From Candidatus Calescibacterium sp. (GTDB lineage: Bacteria; Calescibacteriota; Calescibacteriia; Calescibacteriales; Calescibacteriaceae), in contig JAVVGL010000006.1 in assembly GCA_032249135.1 (NCBI GenBank), positions 39,879 through 103,878 on the forward strand: DNA of 64,000 nt, read 5' to 3'. Made by a program: the position numbers and the translations under genes. Positions within the stretch are counted from its first letter, which is position 1; each line of letters begins with the position of its first letter. The notes under the pieces are model-generated. The model ran no database searches, was not told the DNA's origin, and saw only the letters and a list, made by a program, of their open reading frames with translations. Positions 5,326 to 12,722 of the stretch are shown piece by piece.

Positions 5326-7260
5326 GTGATGAAATTCTCCGGAAATACATCAAAAAGAAAGAGAGTTAATCTTATAATTTCCATATTTTTTTTACTTTTT
5401 TCGTTTTTTTCTTCTCATATTGCTCTTGCAGAGGAAAGAGTTTCTATGAACTTCAAAGATATTGACATATTAGACCTTGTTAGGCTTATTTCAGAATGGT
5501 CTGGAAAAAACTATCTTCTTGACCAGAGAATAAGGGGAAAAGTTACGATAATTTCTCCGAGACCTGTTACAAAAAGGGAAGCGCTTGAGATATTCAATTC
5601 TATCCTTTATGCTAATGACCTTGCGCAGGTTGAAGTTGGAAATATCGTAAAAATAGTTCCTGCCGCTGAGGCTCGTCAAAGTCCAATAAAAACCGTAATA
5701 AAAGAGAAAAAACTTCTACCATCAGAAGAGTATGTGACTTTGGTCTTAACTCCTCGTTTTGCAAATGCTGACCAAGTTGCAGGTGTTCTCAGAAATCTGC
5801 TTTCCCGTAATGCGTTTTTACAAACTTACATGCCTACAAACACAATAATACTCATAGAAACAAAAGCAAATATAGAAAGATTAATGCAGATATTAGATGA
5901 AATAGATGTTCCTCCACCTCTTACCACTGAAATGATAAAGCTCAAATACTCTATTGCGCAAGATGTCGTAAATATTTTAACTCAAATAATACCATCTATC
6001 CCCCGTGTTGCAGTATCACCTCAGCAGCAACCCAAAGTTATAGCTGAACCGAGAACTAACTCTATAATAATCGTAGCTCAACCCGATGATATAGAGTATC
6101 TCAAAAAAGTTATAGAGAAGGTAGATGTTCAAGAGGAGAGAGGGGAGGTTAATGTTGTTTATCTCAAATATGCAAAAGCAGAGGAAGTTTCATCTATTTT
6201 ACAAAATATAGTAGGTGGTGGGCTGAGACAGCAACCGGGACCTCAGGTCGTTCAGGCACCGGTGAGAATAGCCGCAGATAAATCTACGAACTCACTCATA
6301 ATCATAGCTTCTCCACCAGACTTTGAAAAAATAAAAGATATAATAAATAAGATAGATGTAGAAAGAAGGCAGGTTTTTGTTTCCGCTGTTATTATGGAAA
6401 TTTCTTCTTCAAGACTTGCTCAATACGGTCTATCTTTTCTTGGTGGAAAAGATATATCAGTTAGAATGGAGGGGACAACAAAGAAAGGTATAGCTGTTTT
6501 AGGAGAATCCGTTGGAGCTCCTTTGCCTTTTCAGATAATAGATCCTACTAAGATAGCTAATATATCTGGACTTCTTTTCGGGTTTTCTTTACCGCCCGCG
6601 AGTGTTGAAGTTGGTGGGCAAACTATATCTTTACCTCCTCTTGCCGCTATCTTGAACGCTCTCGCAACTGATACACAAGTTGATATTCTTTCAACCCCTC
6701 ATATACTTACGCTTGATAATAAAGAAGCAGAAATAAGGGTTGCTACAAATGTCCCGTTCCCAACAGGTCAAATAATAACTGCTGCTGGTCCAGGAGGCGC
6801 TGCTGTGCCAACTATAACTATACAAAGACAGGATATAGGAATAATACTTAAAATTACCCCTCATGTTATAAAAGAGGAGAAAAAGCTTTCTCTTGATATA
6901 TCAGTTGAGATTTCAGATGTCGCAGAAGAACCACCGCCGGGACTTGCAGTTCAGCAACTCGGTATAGCTACAATAAGGAGAACCTCAACAACTTCTATTT
7001 TAGTAGAAGATGGTCAGACAGCAGTTATTGGAGGTCTTATGAGAACAAGAACTTCTCTTTCAAGGGCAAAAGTTCCAATCTTAGGAGATATACCTGTCGT
7101 GGGTTTCCTTTTCAGATCATCTCAAAAAAGAGTTCAGAAATCTAATCTACTCATATTTATAACACCAAAAATAATATGGTCATCCAGTGAAATGGAGGAT
7201 ATAAAGTCAAGAAAAATTCAGGAAAATATCAAGATGAGAAAAGATGAAGGCATGTATTAA
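5326..7260 (+). CDS. gspD: Type II secretion system secretin
   Basis: Signal peptide; N0 domain (MNFKDIDI...GKVTIISP); repeated LKYA...D.RTNSII N-domains; C-terminal secretin motifs LSTPHILTLDNKEA and KVPILGDIPVVGFLF. Confidence 0.93.
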   Translation: MMKFSGNTSKRKRVNLIISIFFLLFSFFSSHIALAEERVSMNFKDIDILDLVRLISEWSGKNYLLDQRIRGKVTIISPRPVTKREALEIFNSILYANDLAQVEVGNIVKIVPAAEARQSPIKTVIKEKKLLPSEEYVTLVLTPRFANADQVAGVLRNLLSRNAFLQTYMPTNTIILIETKANIERLMQILDEIDVPPPLTTEMIKLKYSIAQDVVNILTQIIPSIPRVAVSPQQQPKVIAEPRTNSIIIVAQPDDIEYLKKVIEKVDVQEERGEVNVVYLKYAKAEEVSSILQNIVGGGLRQQPGPQVVQAPVRIAADKSTNSLIIIASPPDFEKIKDIINKIDVERRQVFVSAVIMEISSSRLAQYGLSFLGGKDISVRMEGTTKKGIAVLGESVGAPLPFQIIDPTKIANISGLLFGFSLPPASVEVGGQTISLPPLAAILNALATDTQVDILSTPHILTLDNKEAEIRVATNVPFPTGQIITAAGPGGAAVPTITIQRQDIGIILKITPHVIKEEKKLSLDISVEISDVAEEPPPGLAVQQLGIATIRRTSTTSILVEDGQTAVIGGLMRTRTSLSRAKVPILGDIPVVGFLFRSSQKRVQKSNLLIFITPKIIWSSSEMEDIKSRKIQENIKMRKDEGMY

Positions 7261-7266
7261 AAAAAG

Positions 7267-7992
7267 ATGGAAGAGCGGAGTAAACCCGGTACTTTTTTTC
7301 GGTTTTTGTTTTTGTCTTTGATTTTTTGGCTTCTTTCTTATTCTTTCTCTCTTTCATTTGCTGACGAAAAAAAATCTGTACTGCAAATTCTGGCTTCTGA
7401 CATATCCTTTGAATTCCAAAGAAAAAAGGAGGAGTTTCCAAAAATAATTGTTGGAACTACGGTAGCCTTAACCGCTGCCATACCATTATCTCTGGCTGAT
7501 CAGTATGTAAGAAACCTTGTTTTATCTTCTTATAATAAAACAAAATATGCAGGAGAAGTTATGAGTTTTTTAGGTGAAGGAATTTTTCTTGTTCCTTTCT
7601 CTTTTGCAGGTTATATTTTTGGTTTGGTTTCAGATAACGAAAAAGTGAGGTTGGGGTTTATGAGAGCTATTTACAATTTGGCTTTTACTACCTTCATAGT
7701 TCAATCTCTGAAATTTTCTGGAAGAGAGAGACCAGCTTGGGCAGAATACCAATATTCTTTTTCTCCTTTGAGATTTGAAGATAGATGGAGGTCATTTCCG
7801 TCAGGACACTCCCAAGCGAGCTCATCAGTCTATTTCACCGTAGCAAAAGATGTCTGTGAAAGCAAATTATGTTCTGCGGTGTTTTATTCTTTACCTTTTA
7901 TTGTAGGTGCGGGAAGAATTCTTGTGAATGATCACTGGCTTTCTGATGTTGCTGGTGGTATAATAATAGGATTTTCATTTGAGGTTTTTTGA
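7267..7992 (+). CDS. PAP2-family membrane phosphatase
   Basis: C1 K..GRERP, C2 FPSGHS and C3 GRI...HWLSDV motifs. Confidence 0.9.
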   Translation: MEERSKPGTFFRFLFLSLIFWLLSYSFSLSFADEKKSVLQILASDISFEFQRKKEEFPKIIVGTTVALTAAIPLSLADQYVRNLVLSSYNKTKYAGEVMSFLGEGIFLVPFSFAGYIFGLVSDNEKVRLGFMRAIYNLAFTTFIVQSLKFSGRERPAWAEYQYSFSPLRFEDRWRSFPSGHSQASSSVYFTVAKDVCESKLCSAVFYSLPFIVGAGRILVNDHWLSDVAGGIIIGFSFEVF

Positions 7993-8055
7993 AGATACCC
8001 AGAGTTAATTTTTTTGAATTCTGGGGTTAGAATTACTGAATTGGTTTGAAAGACC

Positions 8056-9192
8056 ATGGGCGAGTTAGTAGATATATGTGTTGTTGGTGCCGGACCTGCT
8101 GGTCTTTCGTTTGCTTTGAGTTTTCCTGAAAAAAATAAAATTTTGGTTTTAGAAAAAGAATATTTCCCTCGTGATAAAGTTTGCGGTGGAGGACTTATAC
8201 CAAAAGCAGTAAAATTACTTTCTGAGCTCGGACTTGTCCCCGGCAAAGATTTTCCTGCAAAGAAAATAAAAAAGATTGTCTTCTCCTCTGATTTGGGTGA
8301 GAAAATTTTTGATGTATCTGATAAGAATTTTATGGTAACAAAAAGATTAGATATGGATTTTGCACTTTTCAAAAAAGCAAAGCAATGCGGCGTCAAAATT
8401 GAAGAAGGAGTGAAATTTTTGGGATACTCAGAAAAAAACGGAAAAATTTTGGTTTCAACAACAAAAGGTTATGTTGAGTGCAAAAAACTTGTGATAGCTA
8501 TGGGTTCTTACCTTAAAAGAGACTCCTACAAGGCTGTAAGGTGGTTTGAAAATCAGAATGTAGAAGATAAGATGTTGTTCTCTATTGAAAGTTTTGGAGA
8601 TGAGTTTGTGTGGTTTTGGAAATTTGATGGCTACGGTTTTTCTGATATAGGCTTTATGTCCCTCAACAAAGACCTCCAAAAAATAAAAGAAAAGATGAAA
8701 AAAAAGGAAGAAAATGAAAATAATAATAACAATAATAAAAGCCAAGTTGAGAACAAAAAAGAATTTTTTGTCATAAATAAGTTCAATCCAAAGACAAAAT
8801 TCAAAAAAGGAAATGTTTTTTTTATTGGAGATTCATACGGAGTAGATACTTTGACAGGGGAGGGAATTTCATCTGCCCTTCACCATGGAATAATGCTTTC
8901 TCGTGTTTTGCAAGGTGGTTCGGATTTGAATCCTTTTCTCTTTTTATCTTTTCGGTCTCTTTTTTATTTTTATAGCTCTTCTCTTTTCAGAAGGCTTTTG
9001 ATCTTCTATTTTTTTTCAAACTTTTTTTATAGAAACGAGAAAACTTTGGATTTAGCGAAAAAAGTTTTGCTTTCTGATGAGTTTTCAAAATTTGTCAGTG
9101 GTTTGAAATTTGAAAGTGATGGAAAAATATCACAGGTACTGGACTTTTTGAAGATTGTAGCCAAAGTTTATTTCAAAAACTTATTGGTTTGA
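8056..9192 (+). CDS. FAD-dependent oxidoreductase, geranylgeranyl reductase family
   Basis: GAGPAG, FPRDKVCGGGL, R..MD..L and IGDS..VD.LTGEGI motifs. Confidence 0.82.
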   Translation: MGELVDICVVGAGPAGLSFALSFPEKNKILVLEKEYFPRDKVCGGGLIPKAVKLLSELGLVPGKDFPAKKIKKIVFSSDLGEKIFDVSDKNFMVTKRLDMDFALFKKAKQCGVKIEEGVKFLGYSEKNGKILVSTTKGYVECKKLVIAMGSYLKRDSYKAVRWFENQNVEDKMLFSIESFGDEFVWFWKFDGYGFSDIGFMSLNKDLQKIKEKMKKKEENENNNNNNKSQVENKKEFFVINKFNPKTKFKKGNVFFIGDSYGVDTLTGEGISSALHHGIMLSRVLQGGSDLNPFLFLSFRSLFYFYSSSLFRRLLIFYFFSNFFYRNEKTLDLAKKVLLSDEFSKFVSGLKFESDGKISQVLDFLKIVAKVYFKNLLV

Positions 9193-9195
9193 AAT

Positions 9196-10056
9196 TTGAT
9201 TAAAATAAAATTGAGTGTAGAGGAGGGTAAAAAATTAAAAAATAAAAGTATGCAGACTTTCAAGGCTTTAATTTACTCTTTCAGATTCCCTCAGTTTTTC
9301 TTCTTTATTTCGGTTTTGATGATGGGATTTTTTTCAGGAGGAACAAAACAAATATATTCTATCACTATCATATTAAAGCTTACTTTTTGTGCGGTTTCAA
9401 TTTTTTTTCTTTGGTGGGGGAACTCACTTATTAATGATCTTTACGACCTTGAAATAGACAAAATAACAAATAGATCAAGACCTTTGGTGAGAGGACTTGC
9501 AAGACCGGAGGATTTCAAAAAATTCGGGTTTTTATTCCTTTTTTTATCTCCTATTCCAGCATTATTTGTTGATTTTTGGGTATTTCTTATAAGCCTTTTG
9601 TATGTTTTTTTATCGATTCTGTATTCACCTTTGAGATGGGGAAAAAGTCCTTTTTCGTCTTTGTTTATAGCGTGTGGTTCATCTTTGGTTTTCTTGCAGG
9701 GGAGCTTGATTTCTGGGAAAATAGATTTGATATTTTCTCTTTTTCTTTTCTTATCTTTGTCTTTGGCTACTACATCAAAGGACTTAAAAGATTACGAGGG
9801 TGAGAAGGGCAAAGTTTTAAATGTCTTTACTTTTTTCGGGAGAGAGAAAGGCAAGGTTATAAATTTTTTCTTGAACTTTTTGGGTATTTTTGTTTGGGTA
9901 TTTTTGGTTCCAAAACTTTTTTGGTTTTTAGTTTTTAGTTCTTTGATCCTATCTTTATTTTTCTTCTTCACAGAAAAACTAAAAATCCTTATGTTTCTTT
10001 ATCTTCTTGTTCTATCTTTTGTGTTCTTTTTTTATGTAAAACCTTATTATTATTGA
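9196..10056 (+). CDS. UbiA-family prenyltransferase; start may be the downstream Met (MQTF...)
   Basis: Both Asp-rich motifs are present (NDLYDLEIDK...RPL and KDLKDYEGE), plus YSP and about 8 TM helices. Confidence 0.88.
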   Translation: MIKIKLSVEEGKKLKNKSMQTFKALIYSFRFPQFFFFISVLMMGFFSGGTKQIYSITIILKLTFCAVSIFFLWWGNSLINDLYDLEIDKITNRSRPLVRGLARPEDFKKFGFLFLFLSPIPALFVDFWVFLISLLYVFLSILYSPLRWGKSPFSSLFIACGSSLVFLQGSLISGKIDLIFSLFLFLSLSLATTSKDLKDYEGEKGKVLNVFTFFGREKGKVINFFLNFLGIFVWVFLVPKLFWFLVFSSLILSLFFFFTEKLKILMFLYLLVLSFVFFFYVKPYYY

Positions 10057-11105
10057 TTTGACAAAAAGAGGGCTTCAAGGCACAGTGCACAAGATAAAGC
10101 TTTTACTCCTAAAAGATATTTTCTTTCTGGATCACCTGCATAAATGTATTCCGGTTCTTTCATTTCTATTACTTTGTTCATGTGCTCAGAAATTTTCTCT
10201 ATTTCTGTTCTGTCAAGTTTTGCATTCAGTTTAAGAAGCGATGAAATTATAGCGCACCTTGTTGTTATGTTTAAATCTTTGTCATAAATTAAGGCGTAAG
10301 TTAAGGTTTTTTCAATCTTATCTTTAATCTCATTTTTATTCTGGCATTTTATATACGGAAGCGCCCTCACTATGTTGTAAAGCGCAAGATAATCTGAAAG
10401 GTAATATGTTCTGTACCATATATCTTTGAAATTTTGTGGGTTTGAAACAAAGTTATGAATGAATTTACATATTCTCTCAACTCTTTCGTTGTATATATCG
10501 TATACTGAAAAAGCCCATAAAACATTTGCTGCAATCCCCAAATCCCCAGATTCCGTAAATGGACTCCCACCAGCAATCCAGATTTTTACCGTGCCATCTT
10601 CTCTTATGAATTGAGTTAGGCTTTCTACAAACTCCTTTGGTATATTTTTGAAATTTGTAATTTTGAATATAGCTAAAACTACGGAGGTAGTATCTATATC
10701 TGGAATCTCCATAGCTTTGATTTCTTCTGGTCCGATCAAGCTTTCATATCCCCACAGATACTCTCCTTTTTTGTTTTTATTTTTCCAGACAGATGAAAAA
10801 ATCTTTTCTGCGAGGTTTTTACTTTTTTGTTTTAGTTTTTTGTCTTTTGTTATCTTGGAAAATTGCCATAGTATATAACCTACTTGGACAGAATCAAAAA
10901 TACTTTTTCCAGTGGAAGTTTTTCCCTCTATTCTTCTGAACATAGTGTAGTCAAAGAGTGCGGTTTGGTCCAATTTTTTTTCAAAAAAATCAAGTGTTTT
11001 TTCGTATTCAGATTTTTGAGGACAAACTGAAAACACCAAAGAAAAAAAAGAAAAAGGAAAAAAGAAAAAAAGCAATAACGCCAATAATAATCGTTTAGAT
11101 TTCAT
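10050..11105 (-). CDS. Secreted single-domain class II terpene-cyclase-like protein (DxDTT motif)
   Basis: N-terminal signal peptide; PDIDTTS, DG...W, D..IAANVL and TYY...Y..Y...RAL resemble the beta-domain of DxDTT-type cyclases. Confidence 0.6.
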   Translation of the reverse strand: MKSKRLLLALLLFFFFPFSFFSLVFSVCPQKSEYEKTLDFFEKKLDQTALFDYTMFRRIEGKTSTGKSIFDSVQVGYILWQFSKITKDKKLKQKSKNLAEKIFSSVWKNKNKKGEYLWGYESLIGPEEIKAMEIPDIDTTSVVLAIFKITNFKNIPKEFVESLTQFIREDGTVKIWIAGGSPFTESGDLGIAANVLWAFSVYDIYNERVERICKFIHNFVSNPQNFKDIWYRTYYLSDYLALYNIVRALPYIKCQNKNEIKDKIEKTLTYALIYDKDLNITTRCAIISSLLKLNAKLDRTEIEKISEHMNKVIEMKEPEYIYAGDPERKYLLGVKALSCALCLEALFLSNQ

Positions 11106-11207
11106 TTTGCAACTTATATTTTAATTTTGTAATGTAAAGAGAATTTTTTATTTCCGTTTATTTTTTAAATTTTTTGTAGCTATATTTTTTATAGCAGGTG
11201 AGAAAAT

Positions 11208-11840
11208 ATGCGGAAATCGTTATCAGAAGAAGCTACTGAGGTTTTAGAAAGTAAGCTCGGTAAGGCGGAGGCGAAAGCTTTTGTGAGAGCTGTTGATGAA
11301 GTAATATCACAAATTACTGAAATCAAATGGAAAACAACAAAAGATGAGCTCCTTAGTGCAATAAGAGAAGAATTCATAAATAAAAATGTCTTTGAAGAAA
11401 GAACATTAGCAATACAGCAAAGTATTAACTCATCAAAGTTAGAGCTTAATGCAAGGATAGACGGGGTTAATGCAAAGGTAGACGGAGTCAAAATGGAGCT
11501 TAATGCAAGGATAGAAGGGGTAAGAGCAGAGCTTACTGAAAAGATAGACGGAGTTAAGATGGAGCTTAATGCAAGGATAGATGGGGTTAATGTAAAGGTA
11601 GATAGTATCAAGGCAGAGCTTGATGCGAAGATAGAAGGAGTCAGAGCAGAGCTTACTGAAAAGATAGAAGGAGTTAAGACGGAGCTCAGTGCAAAAATAG
11701 ATAAAGTAAAGTCAGACCTTGAAAGACAAATACAAAAAACTGATATGAAGCTTAATTTCCTTATTGTATTGACTATTATTGCCATTACTCTTATGAACCC
11801 AGTTGTAGCTGAAATCATAAAATCACTTCTCAAATTTTGA
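11208..11840 (+). CDS. DUF1640/CCDC90-like coiled-coil protein with C-terminal membrane anchor
   Basis: Short head, TTKDEL neck, 11-residue repeats (ELNARIDGVxx, ELTEKIEGVxx), C-terminal TM helix. Confidence 0.7.
   Translation: MRKSLSEEATEVLESKLGKAEAKAFVRAVDEVISQITEIKWKTTKDELLSAIREEFINKNVFEERTLAIQQSINSSKLELNARIDGVNAKVDGVKMELNARIEGVRAELTEKIDGVKMELNARIDGVNVKVDSIKAELDAKIEGVRAELTEKIEGVKTELSAKIDKVKSDLERQIQKTDMKLNFLIVLTIIAITLMNPVVAEIIKSLLKF
11440..11715 (+). repeat. In-frame tandem repeats (33-nt units with occasional 21-nt units)
   Basis: Recurring gagctt(aatgcaagg/actgaaaag)ataga(c/a/t)gg(g/a)gt units. Confidence 0.85.
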
Positions 11841-11897: not shown

Positions 11898-12722
11898 ATG
11901 TCTTGCTCTGTGTTCTTTATTTTTGCTCTTTTTCTTGTCTCTCAGCAAACAAGTATATATGATGGGATTTTACTTGAAGTTGAAAGACTTGTTGGCTACC
12001 TTGAAACCATCCAAAGACAAGATGGAAGGTTCTCAAATTCAAACTCAGATTTTGAGGATGTCCTTGTTTTATTTTCTCTTTATGATGCCGAAAGAGTAGC
12101 TCACCCCAAAAATAAAATTCATGAACATTTTTCAAAAATAATAAGAAAGGCAGATGAAAATGGTGTTTTTTCTTATCTTTCAAATTCCAGGGACCCAAAG
12201 GCACGCTTTAAATGGTATAGATTTTTGGTCTATACAAATTCTTTGAAGCAACCAGACCTTAAAGCGGAGATAGAGAAGATAGACTGGCAGAAGCAAAACG
12301 ATGTGGAATTTTTTGCTGTGGTTCATGAAACCGCCTCAATGGCGGGTCTCAAATATGATTTTTTATGCCAAAAAATTGAAAGTTTCCTTGAAAAATTCAT
12401 ACAAAATCCAAAAATTCAAGACCTTGAAAAAGTGTATTTTATTTTTCAGTCGCTCAATTACTCAAACTGTGAAAAGTTTAGCAAACATTCTCCATTTGTT
12501 TTTGAGGTTTTGAAAGGGGTGGAGAAACTTAAAGATCAGCTCAAAAAAAATCCTTCTTTCGTATGTATGTACTTTGATGTTTTATCTAATTTTTCTCGCT
12601 CTCGTTCTTTTAACTTTGAAGAATTTGAGCTTTTGTTTGATGCTTTGAAAAAAGTGAGGAGACCAAAAGAAGTTGCAATATGTATAAGCTCTGCTGTGAA
12701 AGTTCTTTTGAGAAGGATGTAA
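11898..12722 (+). CDS. Secreted alpha-helical protein, probable degenerate paralogue of the 10050-11105 cyclase-like protein
   Basis: Signal-like N-terminus, QW-like motif YLETIQRQDGRF, colinear Cys and helix pattern with 10050-11105; no DxDTT. Confidence 0.5.
   Translation: MSCSVFFIFALFLVSQQTSIYDGILLEVERLVGYLETIQRQDGRFSNSNSDFEDVLVLFSLYDAERVAHPKNKIHEHFSKIIRKADENGVFSYLSNSRDPKARFKWYRFLVYTNSLKQPDLKAEIEKIDWQKQNDVEFFAVVHETASMAGLKYDFLCQKIESFLEKFIQNPKIQDLEKVYFIFQSLNYSNCEKFSKHSPFVFEVLKGVEKLKDQLKKNPSFVCMYFDVLSNFSRSRSFNFEEFELLFDALKKVRRPKEVAICISSAVKVLLRRM

What the first reader, a model, noticed from the sequence alone, without database searches (positions are those of the whole stretch)
10050..11105. 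Stand-alone class II terpene-cyclase-like protein with a DxDTT motif and an export signal
PDIDTTS (about 10683-10703) and the downstream D..IAANVL and TYY...LY...RAL blocks match, by recall, the beta-domain of DxDTT cyclases such as AstC and the drimenol synthases. Those enzymes are normally cytoplasmic and fused to a HAD phosphatase. This protein has no HAD or gamma domain. It has a long hydrophobic N-terminus ending FSV-C, a signal peptide or lipoprotein signal. It overlaps tail-to-tail with UbiA, and the nearby PAP2 could supply the missing phosphatase step. A periplasmic terpene cyclase would be unusual.
Basis: partly seen in the sequence, partly recalled or inferred. Interest (0 to 1): 0.75.

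Follow-up and report, generated by a model that had tools for sequence, protein, structure and literature searches.

The report
Exported terpene-cyclase-like barrel, Calescibacterium
A hot-spring bacterium encodes a small protein with an export or lipoprotein signal whose predicted fold and acid motif look like a class II terpene cyclase; such enzymes normally work inside the cell, but its activity is unproven.

Summary
ORF 10050-11105 (-) encodes 351 aa with P-D-I-D-T-T-S at residues 135-141. It has a K/R-rich, very hydrophobic N-terminus ending F-S-V-Cys28, and a 7-nt tail-to-tail overlap with a UbiA gene. No Pfam or NCBIfam family matches it. Its only sequence relatives are two Candidatus Calescibacterium lineages at 87-100% and 62-63% identity.

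The AlphaFold model (pLDDT 73) is a single (alpha/alpha)6 barrel. Its best structural matches are gamma-less class II terpene-cyclase beta domains: drimenol synthase AsDMS Z 21.9, MstE 20.4. Glycosidase barrels follow at Z about 18. A model truncated at D136 aligns its first residue 3-4 residues before the acid motif of AsDMS and SsDMS.

The upstream ATG is the real start, so the protein is exported or membrane-anchored.

The proposed link to UbiA and PAP2 is not supported. The 62%-identical orthologue sits beside GT9 and GH3 genes, and that UbiA was not found in five relatives.

Verdict: a genus-restricted, exported, monodomain TC-beta-like protein. Cyclase chemistry is plausible (about 0.45) but untested.

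The parts
10050..11105 (-). Whole ORF, 351 aa plus stop: exported monodomain (alpha/alpha)6 TC-beta-like protein
11022..11105 (-). Codons 1-28: the n-region MKSKR, a 22-residue F/L-rich h-region, and Cys28 (F-S-V-C). This is a lipoprotein-type signal or a signal anchor.
   Evidence: The ATG is conserved while the DNA just upstream diverges. Indels of 3, 12 and 15 nt in the h-region are all in frame. The genome's other putative lipoproteins have a similar build. It is the highest 19-residue hydropathy stretch, 2.58.
11034..11036 (-). GTG codon 24. This is the alternative start used by 2 of 8 database gene calls (P0002, P0006), and it would remove the signal.
   Evidence: judged less likely
10686..10700 (-). 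D136-I-D138-T-T140, the candidate general-acid motif at the N-terminus of inner helix 4 (model helix 137-150)
   Evidence: Invariant in 8 of 8 homologues. The truncated model's residue 1 (D136) aligns to AsDMS 328 (motif 331-335) and SsDMS 297 (general acid D303) (numbering from PMC9128629 and PMC12232559).
10518..10544 (-). D188-L-G-I-A-A-N-V-L, the start of inner helix 6
10401..10418 (-). W230-Y-R-T-Y-Y235, before inner helix 8. It is a candidate counterpart of AsDMS R425-Y426-Y427, where Y427 hydrogen-bonds the acid D333. D138 to Y235 is 97 residues; D333 to Y427 in AsDMS is 94.
   Evidence: W230, Y231, R232, Y234 and Y235 are invariant. AsDMS residues are from PMC12365925 section 7. The mapping is inferred, not superposed.
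10116..10151 (-). E319-Y-I-Y-A-G-D-P-E-R-K-Y330, a beta-hairpin loop before the last inner helix, on the long-loop face. It is a possible counterpart of the AsDMS 509-518 pocket loop.
   Evidence: E319, Y320, G324, E327, R328 and K329 are invariant. The model has low confidence at 322-333. This is inference only.
11106..11207 (.). Intergenic region between the target (-) and the divergent coiled-coil gene 11208-11840 (+); presumed promoter region of a monocistronic gene
   Evidence: No strong Shine-Dalgarno sequence was seen, and the promoter scan found nothing above shuffle expectation.
9196..10056 (+). Convergent UbiA-family prenyltransferase gene, overlapping the target by 7 nt. It is a neighbour only, and a functional link is not supported.
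   Evidence: Pfam UbiA 2.4e-20. Not found in G001-G005. Absent from the nevadense-type loci.

Best explanation
The gene encodes a real, genus-restricted (Candidatus Calescibacterium) protein. It is translated from the upstream ATG and exported by an N-terminal lipoprotein-type signal (Cys28) or held by a signal anchor. Its single (alpha/alpha)6 barrel therefore sits outside the cytoplasm, against a membrane. The barrel is a distant homologue of the gamma-less beta domains of class II terpene cyclases (AsDMS, MstE). Most likely it still performs protonation-initiated (class II-type) chemistry on a membrane-resident isoprenoid. In that mechanism D138 of D136-I-D138-T-T, at the N-terminus of inner helix 4, acts as the general acid. 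A tyrosine of the invariant W-Y-R-T-Y-Y block (Y234 or Y235) tunes it. Invariant aromatic residues on the long loops of the same face (Y116, W118, Y120, W176, W230, Y231, Y320) line the pocket. Shown here: the ORF, the coded signal, the fold, motif conservation, and the motif lying on the equivalent helix. Inferred: the catalytic role, the pocket residues, the substrate class and the final location. The substrate is unknown. The neighbouring UbiA, geranylgeranyl-reductase-family and PAP2 genes are probably not its partners.
For: Fold. The AF2 model has pLDDT 73.4 and pTM 0.77, with 12 helices. Foldseek ranks 1-10 are all AsDMS chains, with E from 5.6e-6 to 4e-5 and TMq 0.61-0.63. VIA-align gives AsDMS Z 21.9 (286 aligned, rmsd 3.7, 15% identity, model 28-350 against chain 237-536), MstE 20.4, a small myxobacterial 'SHC' 20.0 and SHC 18.8. 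An independent search of 48,161 chains gives the same order. Motif. It is invariant in 8 of 8 homologues. The model truncated at D136 aligns residue 1 to AsDMS 328, SsDMS 297 and SHC 370, which is 3-4 residues before their acid motifs. The extended P-D-x-D-[DT]-T form is unique in the genome, 1 of 1,634 ORFs, and resembles Y-P-D-V/T-D-D-S/T in two SHCs fetched here. Architecture. All long loops (13-28 residues) precede inner helices and carry the invariant aromatics, and four of the five loops on the opposite face are 5-6 residues long (the fifth is about 3). Language-model neighbours. Every named ESM Atlas cluster shown is a 311-367 aa SQHop_cyclase_C, AstC-like_C or TED family, and none is a glycosidase family. 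Export. The ATG and first codons are identical in 7 window-type loci while the upstream DNA diverges, and three indels in the h-region are in frame. The 62% orthologue has its own K-rich, F/L-rich, Cys N-terminus. Two Lgt genes lie in the window. The genome's other putative lipoproteins look alike. Expression hint. Contigs from 4 of 4 laid hot-spring RNA libraries cover parts of the gene at 88-99% likeness.
Against: No sequence method links the protein to any cyclase. Pfam and NCBIfam give nothing. PF13243 finds nothing in the genome even at E<=10. PDB phmmer and hmmsearch give nothing relevant. hhalign against two SHCs gives probability 0.15 and pairs DIDTT with the next repeat. BLASTP to the SHCs gives E 0.09-0.34. 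No QW motif is present in 0 of 8 sequences. The Z gradient is shallow, with GH105 at 18.5 and GH76 at 17.3. For the truncated model, complement TED domains score Z 12.0 against 12.9 for AsDMS. Residues 1-16 of that model have pLDDT below 50, so the register is known only to within one helical turn. No clear counterparts of the AsDMS diphosphate binders Y373, R378 and R380 are visible. The known class II substrates are made in the cytoplasm. No squalene/phytoene synthase and no SHC were found in the 87%-complete genome. Only two lineages exist, so conservation carries little weight. Only 1 of 6 full N-termini passes a PROSITE-like lipobox rule that I recalled from memory, because residue -1 is V, I or F. 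RNA-library contigs may contain DNA.
Confidence: 0.45

Rival explanations
1. An exported (alpha/alpha)6 barrel that acts on envelope glycans as a glycoside hydrolase, lyase or epimerase. In this reading D136 and D138 serve as carboxylate catalysts, and the likeness to cyclases reflects only the shared fold.
For: The protein is exported. In the nevadense-type loci the gene is divergent from a GT9 heptosyltransferase gene, with GH3, GT4 and DUF4398 genes beside it. GH105, GH88, GH76 and GH8 barrels score Z 16-18.5 over the whole domain. No cyclase sequence family matches.
Against: No glycosidase Pfam family matches at E<=1. All top structural matches, and all named ESM Atlas neighbours shown, are of the cyclase or TED type. 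Structure-based identity is 15-16% to AsDMS and 7-12% to the glycosidase barrels. The gene is monocistronic and shares no neighbour between the two lineages.
Confidence: 0.22
2. A non-catalytic exported barrel. It would be a TED-like or isoprenoid/lipid-binding lipoprotein acting as a carrier, sensor or structural envelope protein, with the acid motif kept only as a helix-capping relic.
For: The ESM Atlas neighbour clusters mix SQHop_cyclase_C with TED_complement labels. C3d and other TED domains align to the truncated model at Z 11.3-12.0. Inner helices of this fold commonly start with D..T/S-type caps; hhalign paired DIDTT with such a repeat in SHC. The gene is accessory, present in 2 of 7 genomes held for the phylum.
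Against: There is no CGEQ thioester motif in 0 of 8 sequences. In the full-length searches TED domains rank well below the cyclases, at Z 14.4 or less against 21.9. Both Asp residues, both Thr residues, the WYR.YY block and many loop aromatics are invariant.
Confidence: 0.2
3. A cytoplasmic MstE-like meroterpenoid cyclase that starts at GTG codon 24. It would work with the adjacent UbiA prenyltransferase, with the geranylgeranyl-reductase-family enzyme and PAP2 tailoring the product. This is essentially the first reader's pathway idea without export.
For: Two of 8 database gene calls start at Val24. UbiA overlaps the gene tail-to-tail. MstE is a monodomain cyclase acting on a prenylated aromatic (passages of PMC12414744). 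That its substrate is made by a UbiA-type enzyme is my recollection; the MstE paper was not held.
Against: The ATG and first eight codons are conserved while the upstream DNA diverges, and the h-region indels are in frame. The orthologue has its own signal-like N-terminus. The genes are convergent, so they are not co-transcribed. The adjacency is absent from the nevadense-type loci, and this UbiA was not found in G001-G005.
Confidence: 0.08

Closest known systems
TC-beta domain of HAD-fused drimenol synthase AsDMS (Aquimarina spongiae; PDB 9M7D/E/F, 9MHS) and fungal AstC
   Same: It is the best structural match: Z 21.9, 286 residues aligned, 15-16% identity. Both have a D-x-D-T-T motif on the equivalent helix. 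Both have an R/Y-Y block about 94-97 residues downstream. Both lack a gamma domain, so loops must cap the pocket.
   Different: The target has no HAD phosphatase domain. It has an N-terminal export signal. The diphosphate-binding residues Y373, R378 and R380 have no evident counterpart. No sequence-level similarity is detectable. The Pfam AstC-like_C model (PF28380) was not in the library.
MstE, monodomain class II meroterpenoid cyclase (Scytonema; PDB 6SBB)
   Same: Both are single beta domains of about 350 aa. Z is 19.9-20.4 over the whole protein. MstE uses a D-x-D acid motif rather than DxDD (passages of PMC12414744).
   Different: Identity is only 10%. MstE is cytoplasmic and lies in a biosynthetic cluster, whereas the target is exported, monocistronic and has no conserved neighbours.
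Squalene-hopene cyclase (SHC)
   Same: The beta-domain fold matches at Z 18.7-18.8. The local motif P-D-I-D-T-T-S resembles Y-P-D-V/T-D-D-S/T in two SHCs fetched here. Both act at a membrane.
   Different: The target has no gamma domain and no QW motifs. PF13243 finds no match. SHC is a cytoplasmic-face monotopic enzyme (recalled).
Linalool dehydratase-isomerase (Castellaniella defragrans; PDB 5I3T)
   Same: It is an (alpha/alpha)6 barrel acting on a terpenoid. By my recollection it is periplasmic, which would be a precedent for terpenoid chemistry outside the cytoplasm.
   Different: It is a much weaker match, Z 15.2 at 8% identity. It has a different catalytic apparatus and no DxD(D/T)T motif (recalled).
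GH105/GH88 unsaturated glycuronyl hydrolases (YteR, UGL)
   Same: Same barrel fold at Z 17-18.5. These enzymes are often exported.
   Different: Identity is lower (7-12%), no Pfam family matches, and no sugar-binding signature was tested.

Membership tests
Class II terpene cyclase (beta domain) | (alpha/alpha)6 beta-domain fold | tested here: met
   AF2 model with 12 helices. AsDMS Z 21.9, MstE 20.4, SHC 18.8.
Class II terpene cyclase (beta domain) | D-x-D-(D/T)-(D/T) general-acid motif present and conserved | tested here: met
   D136-I-D-T-T140 is invariant in 8 of 8 homologues and in both lineages.
Class II terpene cyclase (beta domain) | The motif lies at the base of the central cavity, on the same helix as in solved cyclases | tested here: inconclusive
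   The truncated model's residue 1 (D136) aligns to AsDMS 328, SsDMS 297 and SHC 370, so it is the same helix start with a 3-4 residue offset. That stretch has pLDDT below 50. No coordinates were available to measure the cavity.
Class II terpene cyclase (beta domain) | Tyr or His partner that activates the acid (Y427 in AsDMS) | tested here: inconclusive
   The invariant W230-Y-R-T-Y-Y235 block lies 92-97 residues after D138, compared with 94 in AsDMS. The pairing was not superposed.
Class II terpene cyclase (beta domain) | Match to a sequence family (Pfam SQHop_cyclase_C/N) | tested here: not met
   No hit at E<=1. PF13243 finds nothing in the genome at E<=10, while the same search rings in control genomes.
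Class II terpene cyclase (beta domain) | QW motifs | tested here: not met
   A regex for the QW consensus (recalled) matched 0 of 8 sequences. I did not check whether QW motifs occur in AsDMS or MstE.
Class II terpene cyclase (beta domain) | Protonation-initiated cyclisation activity | not testable with these tools
   Needs an enzyme assay.
HAD-TC-beta drimenol synthase / AstC family | N-terminal HAD-like phosphatase domain fused to the TC-beta domain | tested here: not met
   The protein is 351 aa with no HAD hit. No longer relatives were found. The structural alignment starts at AsDMS residue 237, after its HAD domain.
HAD-TC-beta drimenol synthase / AstC family | Match to Pfam AstC-like_C (PF28380) | not testable with these tools
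   The model is not in the library. ESM Atlas neighbour clusters carry it on 10-42% of members, which is a lead only.
MstE-like monodomain meroterpenoid cyclase | Single beta domain with a D-x-D acid, clustered with an aromatic prenyltransferase | tested here: inconclusive
   The monodomain build and DxD are met. UbiA adjacency exists only in the window-type lineage and is convergent.
Bacterial lipoprotein (Lgt/Lsp substrate) | n-region, h-region and lipobox with an invariant Cys | tested here: inconclusive
   The n-region, h-region and Cys are present in all 6 full-length N-termini of A1. Only 1 of 6 passes a PROSITE-like lipobox rule that I recalled, because residue -1 is V, I or F. A crude genome-wide scan found 62 similar N-termini, many with non-canonical boxes. 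No SignalP or LipoP tool was available.
Alpha-2-macroglobulin / complement TED domain | CGEQ thioester motif | tested here: not met
   Absent in 8 of 8 sequences.
Glycoside hydrolase (alpha/alpha)6 families (GH105, GH88, GH76, GH8) | Match to a GH sequence family | tested here: not met
   No Pfam hit at E<=1. The fold similarity is real but lower, Z 16-18.5. Catalytic residues were not compared.

The most novel reading that the evidence does not exclude
This would be the first class II-type terpene cyclase that works outside the cytoplasm. It would be a lipid-anchored, gamma-less beta-domain enzyme of a thermophilic candidate phylum. From the outer face of the membrane it would protonate and cyclise the free isoprenoid end of a membrane lipid, such as a polyprenyl phosphate, a prenylquinone or another polyprenyl lipid, remodelling envelope lipids in place.
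Probability: 0.25. Interest if true: 0.8.

Novelty: new variant of a known kind. Interest (0 to 1): 0.55.

Why it matters
Class II terpene cyclases are described as cytoplasmic or cytoplasmic-face enzymes. Two full-text searches here found no exported bacterial one. The search for 'class II terpene' plus 'signal peptide' gave 5 papers, all on plants, fungi or bioengineering, and a broader search listed nothing relevant among the 15 shown. If this protein is active, isoprenoid cyclisation can take place in the cell envelope, which would extend where cyclic terpenoid lipids can be made. It also adds a sequence-orphan branch to the small set of gamma-less (monodomain) cyclases that matter for how the beta-gamma architecture evolved (PMC12414744 passages). 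It also shows that fold-level searches can find cyclase-like proteins that Pfam misses. If the protein is inactive, it is one more lineage-specific envelope barrel of unknown role.

Tried and rejected
**Sequence searches that led nowhere**
- Pfam and NCBIfam gave no family.
- PDB phmmer and hmmsearch gave only chance hits at E 0.1 or worse.
- The word-indexed protein search was run three times: near lengths, longer lengths, and the profile at E<=10. It returned only the protein's own two lineages.
- The exhaustive phmmer search over 1.84 billion representatives gave the protein's own cluster plus P0010 (E 9.7e-5). P0010 is a eukaryotic mucin (VWD and WxxW repeats) and the hit is spurious, a 52-residue stretch repeated five times.
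- hhalign of A1 against two SHCs gave probability 0.15. BLASTP to the SHCs gave E 0.09-0.34.
- PF28380 is not in the library.

**AsDMS sequences**
I could not obtain AsDMS or AstC sequences from any tool, so no residue-level sequence alignment to a DxDTT enzyme was made. The register rests on alignment ranges only.

**Neighbour and context checks**
- The 274-aa neighbour (11898-12722) is not a detectable paralogue (E 0.007).
- Context conservation was rejected.
- L008 looked like a third, 70%-identity lineage. It is a window-type copy whose middle, including the DIDTT region, is out of frame on a 1.5-kb contig.
- PcrB (archaeal-type lipid) gave only a sub-threshold hit.
- Small PF13243-positive proteins from other genomes (L016, L018) have no signal peptides, so they give no precedent for export.

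**Other scans and libraries**
- The promoter and terminator scan found nothing above shuffle expectation.
- RNA-library contigs do not cover 11028-11168, a T-rich region that the tool skipped, so the 5' end could not be read.
- Searches for PDB codes 8PAK, 8PAJ and 6IJ1 found no relevant paper.
- The MstE paper was not held.
Full report
**1. Observation**

The ORF at 10050..11105 (-) encodes 351 aa. P-D-I-D-T-T-S occupies residues 135-141, which map to 10683-10703. The D188-LGIAANVL and T233-YY...LY...RAL blocks are present. The N-terminus reads MKSKR, followed by 22 uncharged, F/L-rich residues ending F-S-V-Cys28. The gene overlaps the convergent UbiA gene (9196..10056 +) by 7 nt.

Upstream of UbiA, on the + strand, lie three more genes:
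- a geranylgeranyl-reductase-family flavoprotein (8056-9192)
- a PAP2 phosphatase (7267-7992)
- a GspD-type secretin (5326-7260)

D.DTT on its own is not rare. It occurs 3 times in the genome's 1,634 ORFs of 150 aa or more, once in an unrelated 2-oxoacid dehydrogenase acyltransferase. The extended P-D-x-D-[DT]-T form occurs only in the target.

**2. Relatives and organism**

No Pfam or NCBIfam model matches the protein. Three word-indexed searches and one exhaustive phmmer search over 1.84 billion representatives found only its own kin, plus one spurious mucin hit.

Genome and metagenome scans found two lineages:
- a window-type lineage at 87-100% identity (L004-L008, L012)
- a nevadense-type lineage at 62-63% identity (L003, L009-L011)

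L003 is a contig of Candidatus Calescibacterium nevadense. L008, which scored 70%, is a window-type copy with its middle out of frame.

In the seven genomes held for the phylum, a profile search finds the gene in 2. Both belong to the same genus, and all seven genomes are 82-87% complete. It is therefore an accessory, genus-restricted sequence orphan. DIDTT, W230, Y231, R232, Y234, Y235 and many loop aromatics are invariant in 8 of 8 aligned sequences. With only two lineages, this conservation carries limited weight.

**3. Fold**

AlphaFold2 on the 8-sequence alignment gives pLDDT 73.4 and pTM 0.77, with twelve helices forming an (alpha/alpha)6 barrel.

- Foldseek against the PDB: ranks 1-10 are all chains of the Aquimarina spongiae drimenol synthase AsDMS, with E from 5.6e-6 to 4e-5 and TMq 0.61-0.63. 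Small myxobacterial 'SHCs', MstE, GH105 and GH76 follow.
- VIA-align: AsDMS Z 21.9 (286 residues, rmsd 3.7, 15% identity; model 28-350 against chain 237-536, i.e. only its TC-beta domain); an uncharacterised Actinoplanes protein 6IJ1 Z 21.0; MstE 20.4; 8PAJ 20.0; SHC 18.8; SsDMS 18.6; GH105 18.5; GH76 17.3.
- A Foldseek-independent scan of 48,161 chains reproduces this order.

The best matches are thus exactly the gamma-less or monodomain class II cyclases. The margin over glycosidase barrels is only about 3 Z units, so fold alone does not settle function.

ESM Atlas neighbours point the same way. Every named cluster shown is a 311-367 aa SQHop_cyclase_C, AstC-like_C or TED family, and none is a glycosidase. 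These are leads, not tests.

**4. Is DIDTT the acid motif?**

I could not obtain coordinates or AsDMS sequences, so I used alignment ranges instead. A second model that starts at D136 (216 aa, pLDDT 75.9, but residues 1-16 below 50) aligns its residue 1 as follows:

| Structure | Residue aligned to D136 | Acid motif in that structure | Source of numbering |
|---|---|---|---|
| AsDMS | 328 | DxDTT 331-335 | passages of PMC9128629, |
| SsDMS | 297 | general acid D303 | passages of PMC12232559, |
| SHC | 370 | DxDD 374-377 | my recollection |

The DIDTT helix is therefore the helix that carries the acid motif in three cyclase types. The offset of 3-4 residues is about one helical turn and falls in a low-confidence stretch.

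AsDMS needs D331, D333 and Y427 for catalysis, and R425 and Y426 bind the diphosphate (section 7 of PMC12365925, read whole). The target has R232-T-Y234-Y235 at 94-97 residues after D138, compared with 92-94 residues in AsDMS. No counterpart of Y373, R378 or R380 is evident.

Two SHCs fetched from other genomes read Y-P-D-V-D-D-S and Y-P-D-T-D-D-T, against I-P-D-I-D-T-T-S here. However, hhalign and BLASTP against these SHCs are not significant, and hhalign pairs DIDTT with the next repeat. No QW motif and no CGEQ thioester motif is present.

In the model, all long loops (13-28 residues) precede inner helices and carry the invariant aromatics. Four of the five loops on the opposite face are 5-6 residues long and the fifth is about 3. 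This is the layout of a single-faced active site capped by loops.

**5. Export**

Two of 8 database gene calls start at GTG codon 24 and would lack the signal. The DNA argues against that start, for four reasons:
- In seven window-type loci the ATG and the first eight codons are identical, while the sequence immediately upstream falls into two dissimilar versions.
- An in-frame stop lies seven codons upstream of the ATG.
- Three different indels in the h-region (3, 12 and 15 nt) all keep the reading frame.
- The 62% orthologue has its own signal, MEIKNKKNK followed by 13 hydrophobic residues ending F-T-F-Cys.

The N-terminal segment has the highest hydropathy in the protein, 2.58 over 19 residues; the only other windows above 1.6 start at residues 330-331, in the last barrel helix. 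A crude genome-wide scan found 62 N-termini of the same build, many with non-canonical boxes followed by a K/S/E-rich linker. Two Lgt genes lie in the window.

Only 1 of 6 full N-termini passes a PROSITE-like lipobox rule that I recalled, because position -1 is V, I or F. I therefore call the protein 'exported, lipoprotein or signal-anchored'. No SignalP tool was available.

**6. Context**

Among window-type loci the neighbours are conserved, which is trivial at 87% identity or more.

Nevadense-type loci share no neighbour with the window:
- Upstream and divergent are GT9 heptosyltransferase, GH3, DUF4398, thioesterase and GT4 genes.
- Downstream are unknown ORFs of 96, 178 and 242-260 aa.

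The window's UbiA (at E<=1e-10) and the 274-aa neighbour (at E<=0.001) were not found in G001-G005.

In both lineages the gene is flanked by a divergent gene on one side and a convergent gene on the other, so it is probably monocistronic. The idea that PAP2 supplies the missing phosphatase step, or that UbiA supplies the substrate, therefore has no comparative support.

The genome has 4 UbiA paralogues and 2 polyprenyl synthases. No squalene/phytoene synthase or SHC was found, at 87% completeness.

**7. Expression hint**

Contigs from 4 of 4 laid hot-spring RNA libraries, each from a different study, cover parts of 10053-11007 at 88-99% likeness. DNA carry-over cannot be excluded. The 5' end was not covered.

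**8. Reading**

- Best supported (0.45): an exported, membrane-tethered, gamma-less TC-beta homologue that keeps class II-type acid catalysis on a membrane isoprenoid of unknown identity.
- Rival, 0.22: an envelope glycan-acting barrel.
- Rival, 0.20: a non-catalytic TED-like or lipid-binding barrel.
- Rival, 0.08: a cytoplasmic MstE-like partner of UbiA that starts at Val24.

By sequence rules the protein cannot be filed in SQHop_cyclase or in the HAD-TC-beta family. It works like, and is most likely distantly related to, the monodomain class II cyclases.

**9. Novelty**

Two full-text searches found no exported bacterial class II cyclase. Linalool dehydratase-isomerase, a periplasmic (alpha/alpha)6 terpenoid enzyme by my recollection, is a loose precedent (Z 15.2). 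I rate the finding as a new variant of a known kind, of moderate interest until an activity or a superposition is available.

Noticed in passing
window 5326-10056 (+): The GspD-type secretin, PAP2, geranylgeranyl-reductase-family and UbiA genes follow each other with gaps of 6, 63 and 3 nt, so they look like one operon. A secretin co-transcribed with isoprenoid-lipid genes is odd. This UbiA was not found in five relatives.
   Followed up: partly
L008:400-1449: A window-type copy on a 1.5-kb metagenome contig is out of frame across residues of about 113-185, which includes DIDTT, and then returns to frame. It is either an assembly error or a pseudogene.
   Followed up: partly
window 11208-11840 (+): The coiled-coil protein has an 'ELNARI(D/E)GV' type repeat and a C-terminal hydrophobic helix. 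Its length differs between loci, with 210 query residues aligning over 225-261 tblastn columns, gaps included, in three loci, so the repeat number varies.
   Followed up: no
window 11898-12722 (+): A 274-aa protein with a hydrophobic N-terminus has no Pfam or NCBIfam match and was not found in G001-G005. It contains a 'QRQDGRF' stretch reminiscent of prenyltransferase-type repeats. Similarity to the target is weak (E 0.007).
   Followed up: partly
model m916173fb0605 vs C3d/C3 chains: In the truncated-model alignments, residue 4 (T139) pairs with C3 residue 1010. That is the thioester cysteine by my recollection. If so, the TED thioester and the cyclase acid motif would occupy the same helix start.
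   Followed up: no
G000 whole genome: A crude scan found 62 putative lipoprotein N-termini with unusually long, F-rich h-regions and many non-canonical lipoboxes (FFSC, ISFC, LVFC, LLLC). This suggests a relaxed lipobox in this lineage, which also carries two diverged Lgt genes.
   Followed up: partly
PDB 6IJ1: An uncharacterised 'protein from Actinoplanes' is the second-best structural match (Z 21.0). I found no paper on it.
   Followed up: partly
window 9900-10667: One 1,129-nt contig from an RNA library spans the 3' ends of both convergent genes, UbiA and the target. This is compatible with overlapping antisense 3' ends, but a contig cannot prove it.
   Followed up: no
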